DNA of 64,000 nucleotides, from the IMG/VR virus record IMGVR_UViG_2693429637_000011, one strand, 5' to 3'. This stretch comes from a virus (taxonomy: Duplodnaviria; Heunggongvirae; Uroviricota; Caudoviricetes). The translations under genes and the position numbers were made by a program. Under the pieces are notes generated by a model. It was not told the origin of the DNA and did not search any database. It saw nothing but the letters and a program-made list of their open reading frames with translations. Positions 1,232 through 52,810 of this stretch are shown piece by piece (the first letter of the stretch is position 1; every line of letters starts with the position of its first letter).

Positions 1232-1646
1232 ATAGCCCGTCATTTCTGCGCTCACACGTCCCAACATTGAAAAACATGCAAAGCTTTGTAAGCCGATGCA
1301 AAGCTTTGTGTGTCTCACTTTTGTCCCAATACCAATCCGAATCCACCCTTTGTCATCATTGAGAAATGGCAAGGAAGAAAAGGATGTTACTGCACGATTT
1401 GACAAATCCGCCAGAGCTATCGCATACTGATCGCACTGAACAAATAAGCGGTCTCCGCACCCGATAGCTTTGCGGCTTTTTTATGCCTGCAATTTGGCAT
1501 AGTTACATCCGTACAAAGGTCGGGTGGAGAGGCGTAATACAACACCCGCAAGGGGAATATGCCCAGAGCTTCTTATTTGGCTCAGTTGACACCCGACCGC
1601 CAGCTACTAACTGGCGGTTATAAACTAAACAAATAAGGAGGTCATC

Positions 1647-2285: not shown

Positions 2286-2539
2286 GGCCAGATTTGACAA
2301 ATCCGCATTAACGGGGATATATTCCGCTCCATGGTGCTGAACACACCTTCGAAAGCGGAAACCGCGCCCGTCAGTCATGCGGATTTTTTATGTCCATTTT
2401 TCAGATATGGTCGGGTAGCGCGTATACCGAAAAACAGCCGCAAGGCTAAGGATGCGGGCCGAACTTTCGACGGTGTTCAAGTACCCGACCGCCCTGCTGA
2501 ACACGGGGTGATCTGAACAAATCGAAAGGACATAAAACT

Positions 2540-41135: not shown

Positions 41136-41557
41136 GAATCCTCCCGGCCGGGATAATATTGTGAGTAAAATAAGGAGCGGGCTGAAGTCCGGAAGTTACA
41201 GGACAATGGCAGAAGGGAGACTACAGCCCGCAATTCGAAAAAGGTCGCGCAGTTGCGCAGAGTGATTACTATGGGGTATTATTCGCCAGCTGAAATATTA
41301 CTTCACGTTTCATTGTTCATTCCTTGCCGCCCGCGTCTCCCAGCGCGGGCTTTTTTGTCCATAAGAAAGCCCCTCCGGAGAGGGGCTGGAGAGTGGCGCT
41401 ATGTGCCATTGCATGGTGCCGGGTGCCTCCCGGTGAGTTCAGCCCGGTGCCACTAAACCCGCGTCATTCTCGTTTTGATAATCAGAGATTATACCGTCAC
41501 CAGTCGCCCCTCCGCTCAGGGGGATTCACCATGCAGTTTTTTCTAACAAATTCTCAT
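41050..41557. repeat. Repeat A copy 1 (nanS-p 5' end plus ~400-bp upstream element)
   Basis: Near-identical to 45250..45742 and, in part, 46000..46300; contains hairpin cccgcg-N8-cgcggg plus T-run and a perfect TATAAT on the minus strand. Confidence 0.6.
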
Positions 41558-42596
41558 CAGCGCGGGTTTGATTACCGTATCCCTTCATTGGTCGGTTATT
41601 CATGTCCGTCAGCAACTCCCGAAGGCGTGCATTCAGCGCCCTGAGCGTGTGGAAGGTTTCATTACGGATGCGGGCAAGAAGCCATCGCTCGACGATGAGG
41701 ACGCCGTTTTCTGCTTTTGGTTTATCTTTAGGTTTGCGCGGGCGGGCCGGGATAATAACCGTGCCATAGTGCTCAGCCAGCGCCTGATAACTGTCGTTGA
41801 TGACAGGCTCATAGCGATCGGCTTTTTTCACTGCGCTTCTGAGGTTATCGGGGATGAGCAGCTTCGGTACGCCGCCCAGGAAGGTCAGGCAACGGCTGTG
41901 GGCATTTAACCATGACATCATGTCCTGACCTTCGCACGCTTCAACATAGGTATAGTTGGACGCCCCCATTACAGCCACGAAGATTGCCACGCGGCGTATC
42001 TCTCCGGTGTCCGGATTAATAACAGGGACCGTAGGACCACAGAAGTCGATAAAGAGCTTTTCGCCAGCACGATGCTCCTGTCGCATGGAGAGGCGTCGCG
42101 TTTTTTTCCACTTCCGGTAGCAACGGCAGAAGTGTGAGTATCCCATCGCTTTGTCACCCGCCTGTGCCTTGTATTCCATCCACAACAGTTGGCGCGTCAC
42201 GCCAGGTTTTCTCATTTCCGTATCGAAGTACAGCATGTCAGGCATAACAAGCTCTGACGCAGAGGTGTCTTTGGGCGGGAAAATGAGTTTCTCCAGCGTG
42301 TCATGGGATATATCCGCAGGTAATGGCCATGACAGAGAAGAGGCTTTGAAGCGGGCAAGAACCTCAAAAACGGTTGAGGCGCTGATGTGTAACGTCAGTC
42401 CGATACAACGGTTAGTCAGCTTCTTATCGAACTTGAGCTGAAGGATCTTAAAACAAGTTTCCATAGTGCTCCTGGATTTTCTCTTTTTGGACATTGACGT
42501 CTCCACTGGTTTAAACACGGCAATGGAGACTGTGGTGAAAAGAGTTAATTCCCGGAGTGACTGGCGAATTCCAATCAATGATCGGAAGTATGCCAA
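41526..42596 (-). CDS. IstA-like DDE transposase, probably truncated
   Basis: HTH N-terminus and FIDFCGPTV...VAIFVAV...YTYVE core; last codons read into repeat A. Confidence 0.5.
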   Translation of the reverse strand: MAYFRSLIGIRQSLRELTLFTTVSIAVFKPVETSMSKKRKSRSTMETCFKILQLKFDKKLTNRCIGLTLHISASTVFEVLARFKASSLSWPLPADISHDTLEKLIFPPKDTSASELVMPDMLYFDTEMRKPGVTRQLLWMEYKAQAGDKAMGYSHFCRCYRKWKKTRRLSMRQEHRAGEKLFIDFCGPTVPVINPDTGEIRRVAIFVAVMGASNYTYVEACEGQDMMSWLNAHSRCLTFLGGVPKLLIPDNLRSAVKKADRYEPVINDSYQALAEHYGTVIIPARPRKPKDKPKAENGVLIVERWLLARIRNETFHTLRALNARLRELLTDMNNRPMKGYGNQTRADENLLEKTAW

Positions 42597-45339: not shown

Positions 45340-45742
45340 GAATCCTCCCGGCCGGGATAATATTGTGAGTAAAATAAGGAGCGGGCTGAAGTCCGGAAGT
45401 TACAGGACAATGGCAGAAGAGAGACGACAGCCCGCAATTCGAAAAAGACCGCGCAGTTGCGCAGAGTGATTACTATGGGGTATTATTCGCCAGCTGAAAT
45501 ATTACTTCACGTTTTATTGTTTATTCCTTGCCGCCCGCGTCTCCCAGCGCGGGCTTTTTTTGCCCACAAGAAAACCCCTCCGGAGAGGGGCTAAAGCCGC
45601 GTATCTGTATCATCATGCACATGGTGCCGGGTGCCTCCCGGTGAGTTCAGCCCGGTGCCACTAAACCCGCGTCATTCTCGTTTTGATAATCAGAGATTAT
45701 ACCGTCACCAGTCGCCCCTCCGCTCAGGGGGATTCACCATGC
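45250..45742. repeat. Repeat A copy 2
   Basis: Near-identical to 41050..41534, with small indels. Confidence 0.6.
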
Positions 45743-45837
45743 GAAATTTTTTTAACAAATGCCCAGTCTGACAGGCAACTGTCAACTTACTGAATTGTGA
45801 GCAACATAGCATTTAACGGGGAACCTGTTTTCTGCAG

Positions 45838-45999: not shown

Positions 46000-46300
46000 G
46001 CAGAGTGATTACTATGGGGTATTATTCGCCAGCTGAAATATTACTTCACGTTTCATTGTTCATTCCTTGCCGCCCGCGTCTCCCAGCGCGGGCTTTTTTG
46101 TCCATAAGAAAGCCCCTCCGGAGAGGGGCTGGAGAGTGGCGCTATGTGCCATTGCATGGTGCCGGGTGCCTCCCGGTGAGTTCAGCCCGGTGCCACTAAA
46201 CCCGCGTCATTCTCGTTTTGATAATCAGAGATTATACCGTCACCAGTCGCCCCTCCGCTCAGGGGGATTCACCATGCAGTTTTTTCTAACAAATTCTCAT
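46000..46300. repeat. Repeat A copy 3 (partial, lacks nanS-p)
   Basis: Matches the upstream portion of copies 1 and 2. Confidence 0.6.
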
Positions 46301-46362
46301 CCGGGCAGACAACATTCAACTGACTTAATTGTGAGGTATGTAACATTCCCGTTGAACGGATA

Positions 46363-47937: not shown

Positions 47938-48129
47938 CTATCCGGAGTGACTATTAAATCTTGCACGACGTCTGAGCCACCGGACATCCCACAGGTGAGA
48001 CGTATAATTGAAGGTTTTTACATCAGATTCGTTGGGGATTGGCCTGGGTTTATTTCGGGAGCGTTTCGTTGGAAGGTAATTGCAGTTTTCACAGACTATA
48101 TCGGTAATGCTTCGTCGCTGTCGTCTCAT
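47938..48129 (-). CDS. Small Cys-containing nin-region protein (possibly NinD-like)
   Basis: 63 aa; ATGA coupling to NinB stop. Confidence 0.3.
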
Positions 48130-48536
48130 TCATACCTCCTGTCGGTAAATCTGACACCCTGCTCCACAGCCCAGGAAGTTGTGTACTCAATCAGGCTTGC
48201 CATACGCTTCACGCTCATCTGCGCACTGCTTTCGCGGATATTGACGTATTCACCTTCAAGACCTGGCAAAACATCAGCTTCCTGTTTTGTAGCCACGGCA
48301 TGACCGCTGATTAACAAAACTTTCCACTGTTCTGGTTTTAGCCATCTGCCGCACCACTGAACCTGTCGGGAGATATCAGCGACCATTGCGTGAAATTTGG
48401 CATTTTGATCGAGATTCCGCTTGTAATCGGTGATGCGGATCGTAACGGGTTTGTCTTTATCGAGAGTTGTTGCAAGGATGGCGTTAATGGCGAATTGTTG
48501 CTGCTGCTTACTTCGGAGGAAGATAGTCTGGTTCAT
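48126..48536 (-). CDS. ninB: NinB-like recombination protein
   Basis: ...[32 protein letters not shown]... resembles lambda NinB. Confidence 0.65.
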
Positions 48537-48590: not shown

Positions 48591-49262
48591 TCAGAATTCA
48601 AATTGTCTTGCCCGCAGGCTTTTCAGCATTGGCATGGCCCGCTGGATAACGGAACTTGACATGTCGAGACGTGTTACCTCCCTCAGTAGCGCGTCTCTGT
48701 TCTTCGTCACCATGTAGATGGTCTCAAACGCAATGTCATACAGCTTGTTCGTGTATGAGGAGTTCAGCTCTTTCATAATGGGATACAGGTGTTTGCTGAG
48801 GTCCTGGGCTTTTTCCATCCAGAGCTGCATGTAGCAAAGGAGGATGATTTCTTCGGCTGTGAATTGTGGCTGAATCTGCGGCTGCTGTTCGGTTGGTGCT
48901 GTTTTTCCCTGGCTGAAATAGCAGTCTTCCAGTTTTTCGAATACCTCCCACGCCTGATCAGTTTCGAGCATTTTTGCGTGACGGGCTGCGCCGCGTTCTG
49001 TCCATAGGATGAGGGAGCGAACGTTACGGGCAATTTTCACAGAGTAGTTAAAAGCTACTCTGTGCTTGAACTCACGTAAAGTTTCACCTTCAAGTTTGAA
49101 GAAGTGTTTTTCCTCAATGAAACGACCTTTGTTTTCGTGGTGATTCTGGCGAATACGAATAGCTTCTGTGCCGTAAAGGTGCGCCAAAAGTTCGGTAGTG
49201 ATAACGGGGATCTGCTTGTAAGTAATCGTGGAGAGTGTTTCAACAGAAACTTGAGTTGTCAT
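48591..49262 (-). CDS. Antirepressor-like protein (third paralog, distinct N-domain plus shared C-terminal module)
   Basis: C-terminal 93 aa identical in protein to 1647..2285; terminator and structured leader upstream. Confidence 0.65.
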   Translation of the reverse strand: MTTQVSVETLSTITYKQIPVITTELLAHLYGTEAIRIRQNHHENKGRFIEEKHFFKLEGETLREFKHRVAFNYSVKIARNVRSLILWTERGAARHAKMLETDQAWEVFEKLEDCYFSQGKTAPTEQQPQIQPQFTAEEIILLCYMQLWMEKAQDLSKHLYPIMKELNSSYTNKLYDIAFETIYMVTKNRDALLREVTRLDMSSSVIQRAMPMLKSLRARQFEF

Positions 49263-49606
49263 AATGACGCCCTCGAGTGGTTTCTAAACTATCACCACCG
49301 TCAGGTTCCTAATCATCGGGTGGCGAGACGTACAGGGTTAGGAACTACCGGGAAACCAACCGGCGAGCTTTTCAGCTCCCCTATACGCCCCACCATAATT
49401 CAGATGTGCGTGTGCATACGACAATAAAAAACACGCTCGCGGCGTGTCTCTGTCGCGGTTTCTATCCGGGGTTCCTAATCCCGACGCCAGATTTTGCTGG
49501 CGTGCGATGAATATAATCCCGGATACGCGACGTTGTCAAACTGATGGCATTGCAGATCCCTACGCAATGTAACACTATGTGTTATACATTAATAACGGAA
49601 CAAAAA

Positions 49607-49915
49607 ATGCGCATTTTTAAAAACGCCTGGTTTGAGCGATTTGCACGCAAAAACAAAATATCCGACCAGTCACTGCGCGAAATTGTTAAACAGGCTGATA
49701 ACGGGCTTATCTCAGCAAACCTGGGTAACGGCGTTATCAAGCAACGTCTGCCACGAGTCGGTGGCGGCAAATCTGGCGGTTATCGCACAATCATTTTCTA
49801 TCGCGTCGGCACAACGGCCTTTTTCGTATATGCATACGCAAAAAATGAACGTGAAAATATAACCGCTACTGAGGAAAGTGCATTTCGGAAGGGGCTCCTC
49901 ACGTACTCAATCTAA
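49607..49915 (+). CDS. higB: RelE/HigB-family toxin-like protein
   Basis: ~100 aa; ...RLPRVGGGKSGGYRTIIFYRVGTTAFFVYAYAKNERENIT; toxin-first order with HTH gene downstream. Confidence 0.6.
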   Translation: MRIFKNAWFERFARKNKISDQSLREIVKQADNGLISANLGNGVIKQRLPRVGGGKSGGYRTIIFYRVGTTAFFVYAYAKNERENITATEESAFRKGLLTYSI

Positions 49916-49969
49916 CAGATGAACAACTGGCACAACTGATTCTACAGGGTCAGTTTACGGAGGTACCCA

Positions 49970-50287
49970 ATGAGTAAAAATTACCGCAGTGATGCGCTTG
50001 CATCCGTACATGAAATGATGGAATCGCTTCATGATATCGGCGCAGTAACGAAACAGACTATGCGAGAATTCGATGAAACTTGTCTCCAGCCAGCGCCGGT
50101 AATGTCTCCGGAAAGGATCCGTGCACTGCGCGAACGAGAGCATCTGTCTCAACCTGTTTTTGCCAGATACCTCAACGTCAGTAAAAACCTGATATCAGAC
50201 TGGGAACGTGGTGTAAAACGGCCGGGAGGTGCCGCTCTTCGCCTTCTTTCAGTCGTAGAGAAAAACGGAATCCAGGTAATATCATGA
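49970..50287 (+). CDS. higA: HigA-like XRE-family HTH antitoxin
   Basis: 105 aa, C-terminal HTH (LSQPVFARYLNVSKNLISDWERG). Confidence 0.6.
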   Translation: MSKNYRSDALASVHEMMESLHDIGAVTKQTMREFDETCLQPAPVMSPERIRALREREHLSQPVFARYLNVSKNLISDWERGVKRPGGAALRLLSVVEKNGIQVIS

Positions 50288-50337
50288 TACTCCAATACAA
50301 CAAAACCCGCCGAAGCGGGTTTTCATTAGAAGCACCT

Positions 50338-50832
50338 TTAGTTTTGCTGTTCTATTTTAAGCTTGATAGTTTCATACAAAACAATAGTTGCGCCTGTTTT
50401 ACATAATTCCCGGCTGTCATACGCACGAGACCAATAACACAACCAGTTCTCGAGATCTTCTCGAGTATAGGTTTTGCAGGCCAGTCCCTCTGCCATTTCC
50501 ACGATTTCATCGCCTGGTGCTGTTAACTCATAGCCATTCAACAACAAGAAGACATAACCAGCCATCATAGCTGTTCGTTTGTTTGCATTAGCAAATGGAT
50601 GATTCTGAATCAGACTTTCAATCAATACTGATGCCAGTACAAACATGTCATTAGTCTGTTCATACCATCGAACCATGCTGGGACGAGACTGAGAAGAACT
50701 TAAATTATCAACACTCAGCACACTAACAGGTTCATCTGGTGTTTGAAGCTCAATTAAAAGGCGATTAATTTCGGTAAGATCATCAAACGAAAGGTAGTGC
50801 ACTCCTTCAACAATCTCAGCCATAGAGCACAA
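50338..50832 (-). CDS. Doc/Fic-family toxin-like protein
   Basis: HPFANANKRTAMMAGYVFLLLNGY matches the Doc motif. Confidence 0.65.
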   Translation of the reverse strand: MCSMAEIVEGVHYLSFDDLTEINRLLIELQTPDEPVSVLSVDNLSSSQSRPSMVRWYEQTNDMFVLASVLIESLIQNHPFANANKRTAMMAGYVFLLLNGYELTAPGDEIVEMAEGLACKTYTREDLENWLCYWSRAYDSRELCKTGATIVLYETIKLKIEQQN

Positions 50833-50841
50833 TACCCATCA

Positions 50842-51066
50842 TTACACTTTTGAAAGTTCTTCCATTGCCTTCTCGTAACGAGAAAAACCGAAATCGAAAG
50901 CATTTTTCACCTGCTCACGATGAGTGCAATTTTCATCGATAGCCGGGCGCGGAGCTGCCACAACGCTTTTATCGCGAGGGGGAATAGTCAATCGCGGGTG
51001 TTTTTTTAGTGCGTAGCTCATTGGGTGTACCCTTACTTCTCCGTCCTGTTCTTTAACAAAAATCAA
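50842..51066 (-). CDS. Candidate antitoxin for the Doc-like protein
   Basis: 74-aa ORF directly upstream, 10-bp gap; no recognisable Phd similarity. Confidence 0.35.
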   Translation of the reverse strand: MIFVKEQDGEVRVHPMSYALKKHPRLTIPPRDKSVVAAPRPAIDENCTHREQVKNAFDFGFSRYEKAMEELSKV

Positions 51067-51230
51067 GTCAATACAAAATTAGTCAGGCTAATGTTGTTAG
51101 CATAGCCTAATACCGATCGTATTCACAACCACAGTACGTGAAAAAACCCGCCGAAGCGGGTTAAGTGCGGGTGCGTTGAGGATGCCTGACACATCAGAGG
51201 TGGCGAGGGATTTCTCCCTCGCCTGGTCTC

Positions 51231-51386
51231 TTACTCCTCAGGTTCGTAAGCTGTGAAGACAGTGACCTCCGTCTGACCGGTTCGGATTCGTACCTCGCAG
51301 AGGTCTTTCCTCGTTACCAGTGCCGTCACAATGACGGTAATACAGATGACGATCAGGGCGACTAACATCGCCTTTTGCTGCTTCAT
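51231..51386 (-). CDS. hok: Hok/Gef-family type I toxin (within overlapping mok frame 51231..51443)
   Basis: MKQQKAMLVALIVICITVIVTALVTRKDLCEVRIRTGQTEVTVFTAYEPEE nearly identical to HokD-type toxins; RBS aaggag. Confidence 0.8.
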   Translation of the reverse strand: MKQQKAMLVALIVICITVIVTALVTRKDLCEVRIRTGQTEVTVFTAYEPEE

Positions 51387-51851
51387 AGCCTGCTTCTCCT
51401 TGCCTTTCGGCGCGTAAGAGGCTAACCTACATGTGTCTAGCATGAAATTGGCCTCAGATTAATGTTAGGCGTCTTGCAGGACGCGTAATGTTAACTGGGG
51501 CTTTTCTCTGTCTGCCTTACGGTGGCATGCCCGAGGCAGACAGCCTCAAGCACCCGCAGCAATTCTACTTAACTCTCGCTTTACCGCAAACCGTTTTTAC
51601 CCGATATGGGAATTCCCATATCGTAATGAATTCAGTTCCCTAGTCGATCCATCAAAAACACAACCAGGCAGTAAACGCCCACAACAGCAATAACAGCCAG
51701 CGCACCTTCCATTGCCAGTGATATATCATCCGACATATTCCCTCCTTTGGTGTTAATCCCGGCGAACGTTTTTACCCCCACCGACAAATAACATATACTA
51801 AAAAATCAATAGCTATAGCAACGCCTGTAATTGCAAAGGCTTCAAGCCAGA

Positions 51852-52436
51852 TCATTGGCGCACCTCCAGCGGCGGTTCTGGTAGCGGCATCCAGTCGGTT
51901 ACATTGCGGCTCGGTGTTTCGAAAAATTCATCACCATCACGGACTACATCAAAAAACTCACCGTCTCGATATTGCGCATAAAGAACGAATGCGCCATCAC
52001 ATAAAATAATTACGTGCTGACCGTCATCCGGCATTCGCTCACTACAGCTTATCCAACCATCCAGAGTTACCGGATGGTTGGTTGACGTTTCCGAGATTTC
52101 CCGAAAATTATTGGTTGACGAACCCTTCTTTTCCCGAAAGTTTCCAGCCTGAAGCATGGCGGCGCTGTCTGGCGGGGCAGCATATAGCGGCACGTATATT
52201 TCCGGTTCCTTATCAGCACCAGGTTGCTCTTCCAGTGAGAATGTCTTTCCGGTAAATCGATTCATATAAAGCACGGGCTCTGCTTCCAGCGAAGCCTGAG
52301 CAACAAGGGCCAGTGCTAAATCCAACTCAATTGCCTCGAGAGAATTTTTGAATGCTGTCTGTTTTACTGCAAATTTCATCGCCTTTACATTTTCACTAAC
52401 ATGACTGATTAACTGCTCTTTTGTAAAAGTGGTCAT
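51852..52436 (-). CDS. DUF551-family phage protein (second copy)
   Basis: Same N- and C-terminal motifs as 5519..6283 (MTTFTKEQLISH..., ...DWMPLPEPPLEVRQ). Confidence 0.5.
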   Translation of the reverse strand: MTTFTKEQLISHVSENVKAMKFAVKQTAFKNSLEAIELDLALALVAQASLEAEPVLYMNRFTGKTFSLEEQPGADKEPEIYVPLYAAPPDSAAMLQAGNFREKKGSSTNNFREISETSTNHPVTLDGWISCSERMPDDGQHVIILCDGAFVLYAQYRDGEFFDVVRDGDEFFETPSRNVTDWMPLPEPPLEVRQ

Positions 52437-52492
52437 CTCATTCTCCTTTGATGCGAATGCCAGCGACAATTGAAGCCTGATAGCTAATTTAC

Positions 52493-52810
52493 TCACAGTA
52501 CCGCCTCCTGAAAATTCCCCTGATAGAAAGCCAGCACGCGCTGCATAACTTCACTATTCCGGCACTCGCGACAGATTATGTTCAGGCGTCTATCGTAGCG
52601 GCGAATTTCTCCGTCTGGTAACTTTCGAATCAATGTCTGGTCAGTTGTTTTCTCCGGTGTCTTACGCCATACGCGATACACCTGTTCTGATGCAAAAACA
52701 CCGTATTTACCGGACATGTATAAATCGCCACAAGCCAGTACATCCACAAGGCAACGTCTGACTGAATGCCAGCCTGCTCCCGTCGCTCTCTCCAGTTGCG
52801 ATATCGTCAT
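52493..52810 (-). CDS. Hypothetical nin-region protein
   Basis: 105-aa ORF. Confidence 0.4.
   Translation of the reverse strand: MTISQLERATGAGWHSVRRCLVDVLACGDLYMSGKYGVFASEQVYRVWRKTPEKTTDQTLIRKLPDGEIRRYDRRLNIICRECRNSEVMQRVLAFYQGNFQEAVL

What the first reader, a model, noticed from the sequence alone, without database searches (positions are those of the whole stretch)
49544..51500. Cluster of three toxin-antitoxin-like modules in the nin region
Within 2 kb lie a RelE/HigB-like toxin with downstream HTH antitoxin (49607-50287, plus strand), a Doc-motif protein (HPFANANKRTA) with an unassigned 74-aa upstream partner (50338-51066), and a hok/mok locus (51231-51443) where a sok antisense RNA would be expected on the plus strand near 51420-51500. 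The Doc partner has no Phd similarity, so that pairing is the least characterised part and could act as an abortive-infection or prophage-maintenance module.
Basis: partly seen in the sequence, partly recalled or inferred. Interest (0 to 1): 0.6.

Follow-up and report, generated by a model that had tools for sequence, protein, structure and literature searches.

The report
Three toxin-antitoxin cassettes in a prophage
A 2-kb stretch of an E. coli lambda-like prophage holds three separately acquired toxin-antitoxin cassettes; two are well-known kinds (one with a broken toxin gene), and the third pairs a Doc kinase toxin with a 59-residue partner from a family nobody has described.

Summary
All three modules are real and sit between the replication genes and ninB of a lambdoid prophage that is 99.5% identical to one in E. 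coli O104:H4.

1. hok/mok/sok is complete. It has Hok (51 aa), Mok, the full leader, 5'-3' pairing in the mRNA, and a Sok RNA placed by homology at about 51435-51511 (+).

2. The Doc gene has an intact HxFxNANKR motif. It is preceded by a 59-aa gene, not 74 aa. That partner matches no Pfam, NCBIfam or PDB entry and shows no Phd similarity. It is predicted to be disordered apart from one C-terminal helix. The two genes were adjacent in every related locus checked: 129/129 and 79/79 viral contigs, and 22/22 genome and assembly loci. The pair is an 841-bp insertion bracketed by a 20-bp direct repeat.

3. The RelE-like gene is a HigB2-type toxin (PF06296), but a 1-nt deletion removes its last 27 residues. 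Sister prophages carry this or another frameshift. The HigA2-like antitoxin is intact.

The partner is most likely a minimal antitoxin with a Phd-C-like helix. That is an inference, not a demonstration. A few phages carry solo copies of the partner. Overall this is mostly ordinary biology with one uncharacterised antitoxin family.

The parts
49607..49977 (+). HigB2-type (PF06296 RelE) toxin gene, frameshifted. The present ORF 49607-49915 gives 102 aa. The ancestral frame resumes after a 1-nt deletion at about 49892 and ends at TAA 49975-49977.
   Evidence: Pfam E=4.6e-38 but only model positions 1-95 of 120. A one-base repair gives 1-120/120 and 153.9 bits. Intact 123-aa homologues exist in L037, L038 and L039. 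Indel survey. Best PDB relatives are V. cholerae HigB-2, E=0.014 or 0.003 for the intact homologue.
49970..50287 (+). HigA2-type antitoxin, 105 aa, with a C-terminal HTH (residues about 45-99). Intact.
   Evidence: HTH_3 E=1e-7. PDB V. cholerae HigA-2 E=7.9e-8 over residues 45-99. phrog_2104 E=3e-43. Same protein accession WP_000042397.1 in O104:H4, ML35, NCCP15648, cM8a and AST198.
50302..50321 (.). Copy 1 of the 20-bp direct repeat AAAACCCGCCGAAGCGGGTT. It is a G+C hairpin that serves as a bidirectional terminator between higA2 and doc.
   Evidence: Repeat family D2, 100% identical copies 841 bp apart. Terminator-like hit on the minus strand.
50338..50823 (-). Doc-family Fic kinase toxin, 161 aa, motif HPFANANKR intact.
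   Evidence: TIGR01550 E=1.4e-35. phrog_577 'Doc-like toxin' E=1.1e-50. PDB 9vzc (E. faecalis Doc) E=1e-12 and P1 Doc E=1e-4. H75, F77, N79, N81, K82 and R83 are invariant in 35 homologues. Top fold hits are P1 Doc, from a low-confidence model.
50842..51021 (-). 59-aa partner of Doc (candidate antitoxin). The family is undescribed. It has an N-terminal disordered segment with the motif RLxIPxRDK and a C-terminal amphipathic helix (residues 34-57).
   Evidence: phrog_2208 (unknown function) E=6e-42. No Pfam, NCBIfam or PDB match, alone or as a profile. AF2 gives one helix with pLDDT >90. dN/dS about 0.1. Always directly upstream of Doc.
50322..51162 (.). 841-bp Doc cassette: the insert plus one repeat copy.
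   Evidence: E. coli O157:H7 PV15-279 has higA2, a single hairpin, then hokD with nothing between them. The window has the cassette flanked by the duplicated hairpin. Other prophages carry hokD-partner-Doc without higBA.
51143..51162 (.). Copy 2 of the 20-bp direct repeat. It forms the terminator hairpin at the 3' end of the hok mRNA.
51231..51386 (-). hok (HokD/HokW-like), 51 aa.
   Evidence: HOK_GEF E=2.9e-22. phrog_251 MokW-like E=1.5e-31. RefSeq annotates hokD at the same place.
51231..51443 (-). mok reading frame (70 aa) overlapping hok.
   Evidence: ORF list. Same arrangement as the annotated mokC/hokC of K-12.
51143..51555 (-). Predicted full-length hok mRNA, about 413 nt. Its 5' end (GGGUGCUUGAGG) pairs with a 3' element (CCUCAACGCACCC).
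   Evidence: The Rfam RF01794 match defines the leader from 51555 to the hok AUG. The MFE fold shows 5'-3' pairing, z=-7.7.
51435..51511 (+). Predicted Sok antisense RNA: 5' tail, long hairpin, U tract. Promoter-like TTGCCT (51400-51405), 17 nt, TAACCT (51423-51428).
   Evidence: Alignment to the annotated K-12 sokC. Fold -34.3 kcal/mol, z=-5.5. No transcript data.

Best explanation
The region is a mosaic 'moron' island in the nin region of a lambdoid prophage. It is built from three independently acquired toxin-antitoxin cassettes.

(1) A complete type I hok/mok/sok locus. Hok is a membrane toxin translated only through mok. Sok RNA, transcribed from the opposite strand across the mok start, blocks that translation. 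A 5'-3' fold-back keeps the full-length mRNA inert.

(2) A type II Doc module. Doc is inferred to phosphorylate EF-Tu like P1 Doc, because it has the Doc-type HxFxNANKR motif. It is inferred to be neutralised by the 59-aa protein encoded 18 nt upstream. That protein has no Phd, MazE or RHH DNA-binding domain. It is a disordered N-terminal segment followed by one amphipathic helix, and the helix most likely lies in the Doc groove the way the C-terminal 'Phd-C' helix of Phd does. The pair entered as an 841-bp cassette at the shared terminator hairpin between higA2 and hok.

(3) A HigB2/HigA2-type module with the toxin first and an antitoxin carrying a C-terminal HTH. Here the toxin gene has lost its last 27 codons to a 1-nt deletion, while the antitoxin stays intact.

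Shown: gene content, family membership, frameshifts, cassette boundaries, strict partner-Doc linkage, and the RNA elements. Inferred: toxicity, neutralisation by the partner helix, and the biological role (prophage retention and/or phage exclusion).
For: Family assignments are.

hok/sok. The full Rfam leader match scores 116.9 bits. The mRNA fold pairs the 5' end with the 3' end, z=-7.7. Sok is placed against the annotated sokC and folds as tail, hairpin and U tract. A closely related prophage locus, hokW-sokW of Sp5, is an experimentally working type I TA (PMC8621323).

Doc pair linkage. The partner is 6-22 nt upstream of Doc in 22/22 genome and assembly loci across Salmonella, Providencia, Serratia, Yersinia pestis and others. 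One of these is a non-phage site between topA and sodC. Linkage held in 129/129 viral contigs found by searching with the partner and in 79/79 found by searching with Doc. A 36%-identical partner precedes Doc in Pseudomonas phage Sirocco.

Partner as a real gene. It is under purifying selection, with pN 0.13-0.25 against pS 0.67-0.95.

Partner structure. AF2 gives residues 1-33 essentially unstructured (one 3-residue helical turn) and helix 34-57 at pLDDT >90. Hydrophobic positions 38, 42, 46, 49, 53 and 56 are the most conserved in the helix. At an ungapped offset of 14 they fall on Phd 52, 56, 60, 63, 67 and 70. Five of those six (56, 60, 63, 67, 70) are among the six measured hot spots of Salmonella Phd, and the gatekeepers F56 and L70 map to F42 and the invariant L56 (PMC9207808).

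Precedent. A Phd-C element alone, fused to SUMO, is enough to neutralise a Doc toxin (PMC10440598). E. faecalis Doc is bound by the C-terminal helix of a MazE-type antitoxin (PMC13034048).

HigB2 frameshift. Repair by one base extends the Pfam match from 1-95 to 1-120 of 120 positions. Intact 123-aa homologues overlap the antitoxin start by 8 nt. Seven of seven close relatives carry one or both of two different 1-nt deletions.
Against: No experiment or complex model supports the partner-Doc contact.

Profile comparison finds no homology between the partner and Phd. The hot-spot match is the spacing that any amphipathic helix would give.

Promoter regions of the pair carry palindromes. In Providencia and Morganella loci a 22-bp palindrome lies between -35 and -10 and shows a symmetric double substitution. 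This implies a sequence-specific dimeric DNA binder, which sits uneasily with a partner that has no DNA-binding fold.

No convincing sigma-70 promoter was found upstream of the partner in the window.

The truncated HigB2-like protein keeps the residues that align with the VcHigB2 catalytic Arg64, Tyr82 and Lys84, so it may retain activity.

The Doc AF2 model is of low confidence, pLDDT 61.
Confidence: 0.7

Rival explanations
1. The 59-aa partner is a conventional two-function antitoxin. Its conserved N-terminal RLxIPxRDK segment forms a DNA-binding element, for example a beta-ribbon in a dimer or in the complex with Doc, and autorepresses the operon. It would then be a cryptic two-domain antitoxin, not a neutralising helix alone.
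For: I13, P14 and R16 are nearly invariant across 39 family members. Promoter-proximal palindromes occur in most loci. In Providencia and Morganella the palindrome TAATGAAAGTT/AGCTTTCATTA sits between TTGACT and the -10 element and changes symmetrically to TAATGT../..ACATTA. No other regulator gene travels with the pair.
Against: AF2 predicts essentially no secondary structure in residues 1-33. The segment is proline-rich and too short for RHH, AbrB or Phd/YefM folds. A family profile has no Pfam or PDB hit. The monomer prediction cannot see a dimeric ribbon, so this is absence of evidence only.
Confidence: 0.3
2. The island is mainly a graveyard of decaying selfish cassettes with no present benefit to phage or host. 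The modules persist only through their own addictive properties and are being inactivated.
For: The HigB2-type toxin is frameshifted in the window and in all 7 close relatives examined, by two different deletions. The three-module arrangement is rare, in 34 of 5426 E. coli genomes. Cassette combinations vary between prophages.
Against: Doc, its partner, Hok, Mok, the Sok elements and HigA2 are all intact and conserved. The partner is under strong purifying selection. The Doc catalytic residues are invariant. The related hokW-sokW locus halves phage release when deleted (PMC8621323).
Confidence: 0.2
3. The Doc pair, and perhaps hok/sok, acts chiefly as an abortive-infection or exclusion system against other phages. 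The solo partner genes in other phages would be counter-defence antitoxins.
For: The location is a prophage moron site. Partner homologues without any Doc within 3 kb lie between Q (or an endonuclease gene) and the holin gene in four lambdoid phage lineages, and next to an integrase in a fifth. Orphan antitoxin counter-defence is documented for DarTG1 (PMC11825919).
Against: There is no PADLOC match for the partner and only a weak one for Doc. No solo copy was found among 129 IMG/VR loci. No phage-challenge data exist. Solo genes could be remnants left after Doc was lost.
Confidence: 0.25
4. The small upstream gene is not an antitoxin at all. It could be a leader peptide or an unrelated phage protein, with this Doc regulated in another way or not toxic.
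For: There is no homology to any known antitoxin and no direct evidence of interaction.
Against: Adjacency is strict in both directions in more than 200 loci, including non-phage chromosomal sites. The gap is 6-22 nt. The protein sequence is conserved while synonymous sites are saturated. The architecture and size are typical of type II antitoxins.
Confidence: 0.08

Closest known systems
Phd/Doc of bacteriophage P1 and of Salmonella (type II TA; Doc phosphorylates EF-Tu)
   Same: The toxin belongs to the Doc family (TIGR01550, E=1.4e-35) and has the Doc-type motif HxFx(D/N)(A/G)NKR. The small antitoxin-like gene lies directly upstream. The partner has a C-terminal amphipathic helix whose conserved hydrophobic positions have the same spacing as the Phd hot spots.
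   Different: The partner has no Phd/YefM N-terminal domain and no detectable sequence homology to Phd. Doc is 161 aa against 126 aa, with an extra C-terminal tail. The conditional-cooperativity autoregulation known for Phd cannot be assumed here.
E. faecalis Phd(MazE-like)-Doc (PDB 9VZC) and C. doosanense Doc:PanA with a Phd-C domain
   Same: Both show that Doc toxins are neutralised by a portable C-terminal helical element attached to unrelated N-terminal domains (PMC13034048, PMC10440598). 9VZC Doc is the closest solved relative of the window Doc, E=1e-12.
   Different: Here the helix is attached only to a 33-residue disordered segment, not to a MazE-like or Panacea domain.
VbhA/VbhT and other FicTA modules (class I Fic, small antitoxin supplying an inhibitory helix)
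   Same: A small antitoxin of about 60 aa lies upstream of a Fic-fold toxin.
   Different: The partner lacks the (S/T)xxxE(G/N) inhibitory motif, by reading of the sequence. The toxin has the Doc NKR motif, not the AMPylating GNGR motif.
Vibrio cholerae HigB2/HigA2
   Same: The toxin comes before the antitoxin. The antitoxin is about 105 aa with an N-terminal toxin-binding region and a C-terminal HTH (E=7.9e-8). The toxin aligns over the GGxR and YxKNE core that carries Arg64, Tyr82 and Lys84.
   Different: Similarity of the toxin is weak (E=0.003-0.014). The family is 123 aa against 110 aa. The window copy is frameshifted after residue 96.
hokW-sokW of Stx prophage Sp5; hok/sok of plasmid R1; hokC/sokC and hokD of E. 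coli K-12
   Same: It has Hok of 51 aa, an overlapping mok, an antisense Sok over the mok start, the full leader, and 5'-3' fold-back pairing. It sits at the same kind of prophage location as hokW.
   Different: The Sok hairpin is 18 nt longer than in sokC. Expression was not tested.

Membership tests
Doc (death-on-curing) Fic-fold kinase toxins | Sequence membership in the TIGR01550 / PF02661 family | tested here: met
   TIGR01550 scores 122.1 bits against a cut-off of 38.65, E=1.4e-35. PF02661 E=3.1e-11.
Doc (death-on-curing) Fic-fold kinase toxins | Doc-type catalytic motif HxFx(D/N)(A/G)NKR, with K in place of the second G of AMPylating Fic proteins | tested here: met
   HPFANANKR at residues 75-83. 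H75, F77, N79, N81, K82 and R83 are invariant in 35 homologues. The motif definition comes from established knowledge (Castro-Roa et al. 2013, cited in PMC10440598).
Doc (death-on-curing) Fic-fold kinase toxins | Phosphorylation of EF-Tu and growth arrest | not testable with these tools
   Needs a toxicity assay and EF-Tu phospho-mapping.
Phd/YefM antitoxins | Phd/YefM N-terminal DNA-binding and dimerisation domain, or sequence homology to Phd | tested here: not met
   No Pfam hit for 39 members. hhalign against verified P1 Phd gives probability 1.4%. AF2 shows no folded N-terminal domain.
Type II antitoxin (generic) | Small gene co-directional with, and tightly linked to, the toxin gene across lineages and genomic contexts | tested here: met
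   22/22, 129/129 and 79/79 loci, with a gap of 6-22 nt, including a chromosomal topA-sodC site.
Type II antitoxin (generic) | Direct binding to the toxin and neutralisation of it | not testable with these tools
The claim is inferred only from the helix pattern.
HigB2/RelE (PF06296) - HigA2 module | Full-length toxin of the PF06296 family | tested here: not met
   The window ORF covers model positions 1-95 of 120. A 1-nt deletion removes the last 27 residues.
HigB2/RelE (PF06296) - HigA2 module | Toxin-first order, with a downstream antitoxin carrying a C-terminal HTH and overlapping the toxin stop | tested here: met
   HTH_3 at residues 50-94. HigA-2 PDB match E=7.9e-8. The ancestral toxin stop overlaps the antitoxin ATG by 8 nt.
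hok/sok type I TA | Hok peptide of the HOK_GEF family with an overlapping mok frame | tested here: met
   PF01848 E=2.9e-22. mok is 70 aa and overlaps hok.
hok/sok type I TA | Conserved hok mRNA leader and long-range 5'-3' (tac/fbi-type) pairing | tested here: met
   RF01794 scores 116.9 bits over the full model 1-157. The MFE structure pairs nt 1-13 with the 3' CCUCAACGCACCC, z=-7.7.
hok/sok type I TA | Antisense Sok RNA transcribed across the mok translation start | tested here: inconclusive
   Sequence homology to the annotated sokC, the same promoter geometry and a Sok-like fold. There is no transcript evidence.

The most novel reading that the evidence does not exclude
The 59-aa proteins form an undescribed family of minimal, single-helix Doc antitoxins: a 'Phd-C-only' element with a conserved disordered RLxIPxRDK head. 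Some temperate phages have captured solo copies and express them from late-operon or integrase-adjacent moron sites. Those copies would disarm Doc toxins of resident prophages or hosts, as an anti-addiction or counter-defence device comparable to orphan DarG-like antitoxins.
Probability: 0.15. Interest if true: 0.6.

Novelty: new variant of a known kind. Interest (0 to 1): 0.35.

Why it matters
The hok/sok and HigB2/HigA2 cassettes add nothing new in kind.

The Doc cassette is different. It would add one more antitoxin type to the known set of Doc partners (Phd/YefM, MazE-like, PanA), and the smallest so far. It would be a natural case of the 'neutralising element alone' that was shown to work only as an engineered SUMO fusion.

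The module is present in the 2011 outbreak lineage E. coli O104:H4, in 125 of 5426 complete E. coli genomes, and across Enterobacterales including Yersinia pestis. In all of these its partner is annotated only as hypothetical.

The repeated, independent frameshifts in the neighbouring HigB2-type toxin, next to a fully conserved antitoxin, give a clean example of toxin loss with antitoxin retention inside a prophage.

The duplicated terminator hairpin shows exactly how one cassette was inserted.

Tried and rejected
1. I tried to predict the partner-Doc complex by translating through both genes (they are in the same frame) and by a glycine-serine fusion.

2. I looked for homology of the partner to any known antitoxin. 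Single-sequence and 39-member profile searches of PDB and Pfam, NCBIfam and PADLOC gave nothing beyond chance. The best hit was ribosomal protein S25 at E=0.025. hhalign against P1 Phd was negative.

3. I considered the class I Fic inhibitory-helix model (VbhA-like) and rejected it. The (S/T)xxxE(G/N) motif is absent and the toxin has the Doc NKR motif.

4. I considered that the frameshift might be a sequencing error. I rejected this because the same deletion is in many independently finished O104:H4 genomes.

5. The AF2 model of Doc from 35 homologues was poor (pLDDT 61). Fold search still ranked P1 Doc first, but with E of only about 0.02. I give it little weight.

6. The simple promoter scan found no sigma-70 promoter for the partner-Doc operon in the window. 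The TGGTATTA element shared by some loci is only a candidate extended -10.

7. I searched IMG/VR for solo partner genes and found none among 129 loci. Solo copies are therefore rare.

8. A literature search for the protein accessions and the PHROG number returned nothing.

9. The dN/dS estimate between two solo copies is not valid, because an indel misaligns the codons. I discarded it.
Full report
CONTEXT. The window region is part of a lambdoid prophage whose early-right operon runs on the minus strand. NinB (48126-48536, Pfam E=1.2e-53), an ORF6N/P22_AR_C antirepressor (48591-49262) and a DUF551 protein (51852-52496) flank the finding. The 2.5 kb around it is 99.5% identical to a prophage of E. 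coli O104:H4. In that genome the gene order is cII, replication genes, DUF551, hokD, hypothetical, Doc, HTH, RelE/ParE, ORF6N, NinB, NinE, RusA, NinH, Q. Only 34 of 5426 complete E. coli genomes hold the whole arrangement. 'Nin region' is therefore correct.

CHECK OF THE OBSERVATION. All three modules are present, and their family scores exclude chance:
- PF06296 RelE, E=4.6e-38.
- HTH_3, E=1e-7.
- Fic, E=3.1e-11, and TIGR01550 DOC_P1, E=1.4e-35.
- HOK_GEF, E=2.9e-22.
- Rfam sok, 116.9 bits against a gathering score of 59.

PHROGs gives phrog_577 'Doc-like toxin', phrog_251 'MokW-like host killing', and three families of unknown function for the RelE-like protein, the HTH protein and the Doc partner.

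MODULE 1, HigB2/HigA2 TYPE, WITH A BROKEN TOXIN. The only meaningful solved relatives are V. cholerae HigB-2 for the toxin and HigA-2 for the antitoxin. The toxin match is weak (E=0.014, or 0.003 for an intact homologue). It covers the GGxR and YxKNE core. The antitoxin match is E=7.9e-8 over the C-terminal HTH. The gene order and the antitoxin layout match the published HigBA2 description: toxin first, and an antitoxin with an N-terminal disordered neutralising segment and a C-terminal HTH (PMC5416850).

The 102-aa ORF matches only positions 1-95 of the 120-position Pfam model. A different frame continues with LNLTDEQLAQLILQGQFTEVPNE and stops 8 nt inside the antitoxin gene. Adding one base restores a 123-aa protein that matches the model end to end, at 153.9 against 130.6 bits. 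Full-length homologues of about 123 aa are common on plasmids and in other E. coli prophages, always with the 8-nt overlap.

Against an intact reference, the close relatives carry the following deletions:
- The window has one 1-nt deletion, near gene nt 283.
- ML35, NCCP15648 and phage PhiR12_3 have a different one, near gene nt 43.
- O104:H4, cM8a and AST198 have both.

The toxin is thus disrupted in all seven close relatives examined, while the antitoxin protein is identical in all five close relatives for which an annotation was retrieved. The shared deletion in many finished genomes rules out a sequencing error. The truncated protein keeps the residues that align with the VcHigB2 catalytic residues, so loss of activity is likely but not proven.

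MODULE 2, DOC WITH AN UNDESCRIBED PARTNER. Doc (161 aa from ATG 50823) has the Doc-type motif HPFANANKR, invariant in 35 homologues. Its closest solved relative is E. faecalis Doc (9VZC, E=1e-12), followed by P1 Doc.

The partner starts at ATG 51021 and is 59 aa. It matches nothing in Pfam, NCBIfam, PADLOC or the PDB, alone or as a 39-member profile. It shows no similarity to P1 Phd: hhalign probability is 1.4%, and the Phd sequence was first verified against the PDB. The family is small, with 39 clusters at 50% identity and 72 at 90%, and almost all members are 44-66 aa.

It is a genuine gene. Synonymous sites are saturated (pS 0.67-0.95) while pN is 0.13-0.25.

Linkage to Doc is strict:
- 22/22 loci from genomes and assemblies, with a gap of 6-22 nt.
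- 129/129 IMG/VR contigs found by searching with the partner.
- 79/79 IMG/VR contigs found by searching with Doc.
- Pseudomonas phage Sirocco, where the partner is only 36% identical.

Contexts range from prophage tail and Bro/Rha regions to a chromosomal site between topA and sodC in Providencia. The two genes therefore travel as a self-contained unit.

AF2 predicts residues 1-33 essentially unstructured (one 3-residue helical turn) and a single helix at 34-57 with pLDDT above 90. The most conserved features are the N-terminal motif RLxIPxRDK and the hydrophobic face of the helix, at V38, A41, F42, F46, Y49, M53, L56 and V59.

HOW THE DOC PAIR PROBABLY WORKS. Published work shows three relevant things. 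Doc toxins are neutralised by a C-terminal helical element of otherwise unrelated antitoxins. That element fused to SUMO suffices (PMC10440598; PMC13034048). In Salmonella Phd the hot spots are F56, I59, M60, H63, L67 and L70, with F56 and L70 acting as gatekeepers (PMC9207808).

An ungapped offset of 14 puts partner F42, F46, Y49, M53 and L56 on Phd 56, 60, 63, 67 and 70. Partner L56 is invariant. This is compatible with a Phd-C-like mode of binding. It is also what any amphipathic helix would show, so I treat it as inference. A complex model could not be run.

One observation does not fit a helix-only antitoxin. The promoters of the pair carry palindromes. In Providencia and Morganella a 22-bp palindrome lies between TTGACT and the -10 element. 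It changes symmetrically on both halves in three loci, as an operator for a dimeric protein would. Which protein binds it is unresolved.

ORIGIN OF THE DOC CASSETTE. An identical 20-bp hairpin sequence, AAAACCCGCCGAAGCGGGTT, occurs at 50302-50321 and at 51143-51162. In E. coli O157:H7 PV15-279 the HigA2 gene is followed by one such hairpin and then directly by the 3' end of hokD. In the window, 841 bp carrying the partner and Doc lie between two copies. A Citrobacter Doc locus ends with the same hairpin.

Other E. coli prophages carry hokD-partner-Doc without the HigBA pair. The Doc cassette is in 125 of the 5426 genomes and the HigBA pair in 217, all on chromosomes. The three modules are independent cassettes assembled in different combinations.

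MODULE 3, hok/mok/sok, COMPLETE. Hok is 51 aa (51231-51386) and Mok 70 aa (to 51443). The Rfam model, which lies on the sense strand and ends at the hok AUG, matches over its full length from 51555. The predicted 413-nt mRNA folds with its 5' end paired to a 3' element just before the terminator hairpin (z=-7.7). That is the fold-back arrangement known for hok mRNAs.

Alignment to K-12 hokC/sokC, where sokC is annotated, places Sok at about 51435-51511 on the plus strand, with the same promoter geometry (TTGCCT, 17 nt, TAACCT). It folds into a 5' tail, a long hairpin and a U tract (z=-5.5). The related hokW-sokW locus of Stx prophage Sp5 has been shown to be a working type I TA that aids phage release (PMC8621323). 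Transcription here is not shown.

SOLO PARTNER GENES. Among the more distant family members looked up, two were again paired with Doc (L028, L032). Five were alone. Four of those lie between Q, or an endonuclease gene, and the holin gene of lambdoid phages. One lies next to an integrase. None has Doc similarity within 3 kb. No solo copy was present in IMG/VR, so they are rare. They may be remnants or captured anti-Doc genes. The second reading parallels the orphan antitoxins described for DarTG1 (PMC11825919) but is speculative.

VERDICT. There are three TA-type cassettes, but one has a disabled toxin, and they are independent insertions. The hok/sok and HigBA2 parts are already known kinds. 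The Doc partner is an uncharacterised antitoxin candidate, so the module is a new variant of a known kind. Interest is moderate to low.

Noticed in passing
window 48591-49539 (minus strand): Directly beside the finding lies a P1/P7-immI-like or Gifsy-1-like antirepressor unit. It has a strong promoter-like site (TTGACA-18-TATATT, 49539 to 49510) and a near-threshold match to the a1/b1 target of C4 (49463-49516, 44 bits, just under the 46.7-bit gathering score). These are followed by isrK (49426-49503, 69 bits), C4 antisense RNA (49316-49400, 66 bits) and the Ant gene (phrog_377, E=1.6e-85). It is transcribed divergently from the HigB2-like gene.
   Followed up: partly
window 41357-41562, 45562-45771, 46100-46305 (minus strand): Three full-length copies of the sRNA family STnc100 (161-165 bits) lie downstream of the Q antiterminator gene, in the late-operon leader region.
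   Followed up: no
window 1518-1606 and 2409-2498 (plus strand): Two matches to Rfam sRNA-Xcc1 (69 and 67.5 bits, above the gathering score) lie about 900 nt apart near the start of the window.
   Followed up: no
window 51632-51736 and 51772-51855 (minus strand): Two tiny hydrophobic ORFs lie just upstream of the hok locus. One is 34 aa (MSDDISLAMEGALAVIAVVGVYCLVVFLMDRLGN), annotated in RefSeq as hypothetical WP_001278450.1. The other is 27 aa (MIWLEAFAITGVAIAIDFLVYVICRWG). Each looks like a single membrane helix. Neither has a convincing PHROG match; the best is phrog_38566 at E=0.0073 for the 27-aa ORF.
   Followed up: partly
L023/L024, L025/L026, L027, L033/L034 (between Q or Endonuclease_1 and holin); L030/L031 (next to integrase): Solo homologues of the Doc partner (39-48% identical, with the motifs kept) have no Doc gene within 3 kb, in metagenome-assembled lambdoid phages. 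None was found in IMG/VR.
   Followed up: partly
L005, L022, L015, L018, L019, L020 (about 100 to 65 nt upstream of the partner start codon): In chromosomal Providencia and Morganella copies of the Doc pair, a 22-bp palindrome sits between a TTGACT -35 and the -10 element. It shows a symmetric double substitution, TAATGA..TCATTA to TAATGT..ACATTA, which is operator-like. Yet the partner has no recognisable DNA-binding fold.
   Followed up: partly
window 49649 and about 49892; L001, L035, L036, L044-L046: Two different 1-nt deletions disrupt the HigB2-type toxin in sister prophages, singly or together. This needs at least two events plus either a third event or recombination. The antitoxin protein is unchanged in all the sister E. 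coli prophages.
   Followed up: yes
L032:529-1920: In one metagenomic contig the partner-Doc pair is followed directly by a second, longer Fic-domain protein of 242 aa.
   Followed up: no
window 51141-51222 (minus strand): A sub-threshold isrK-like match (31 bits against a gathering score of 50) overlaps the hok 3' end and terminator. It probably reflects only the shared hairpin-plus-U-tract shape.
   Followed up: no
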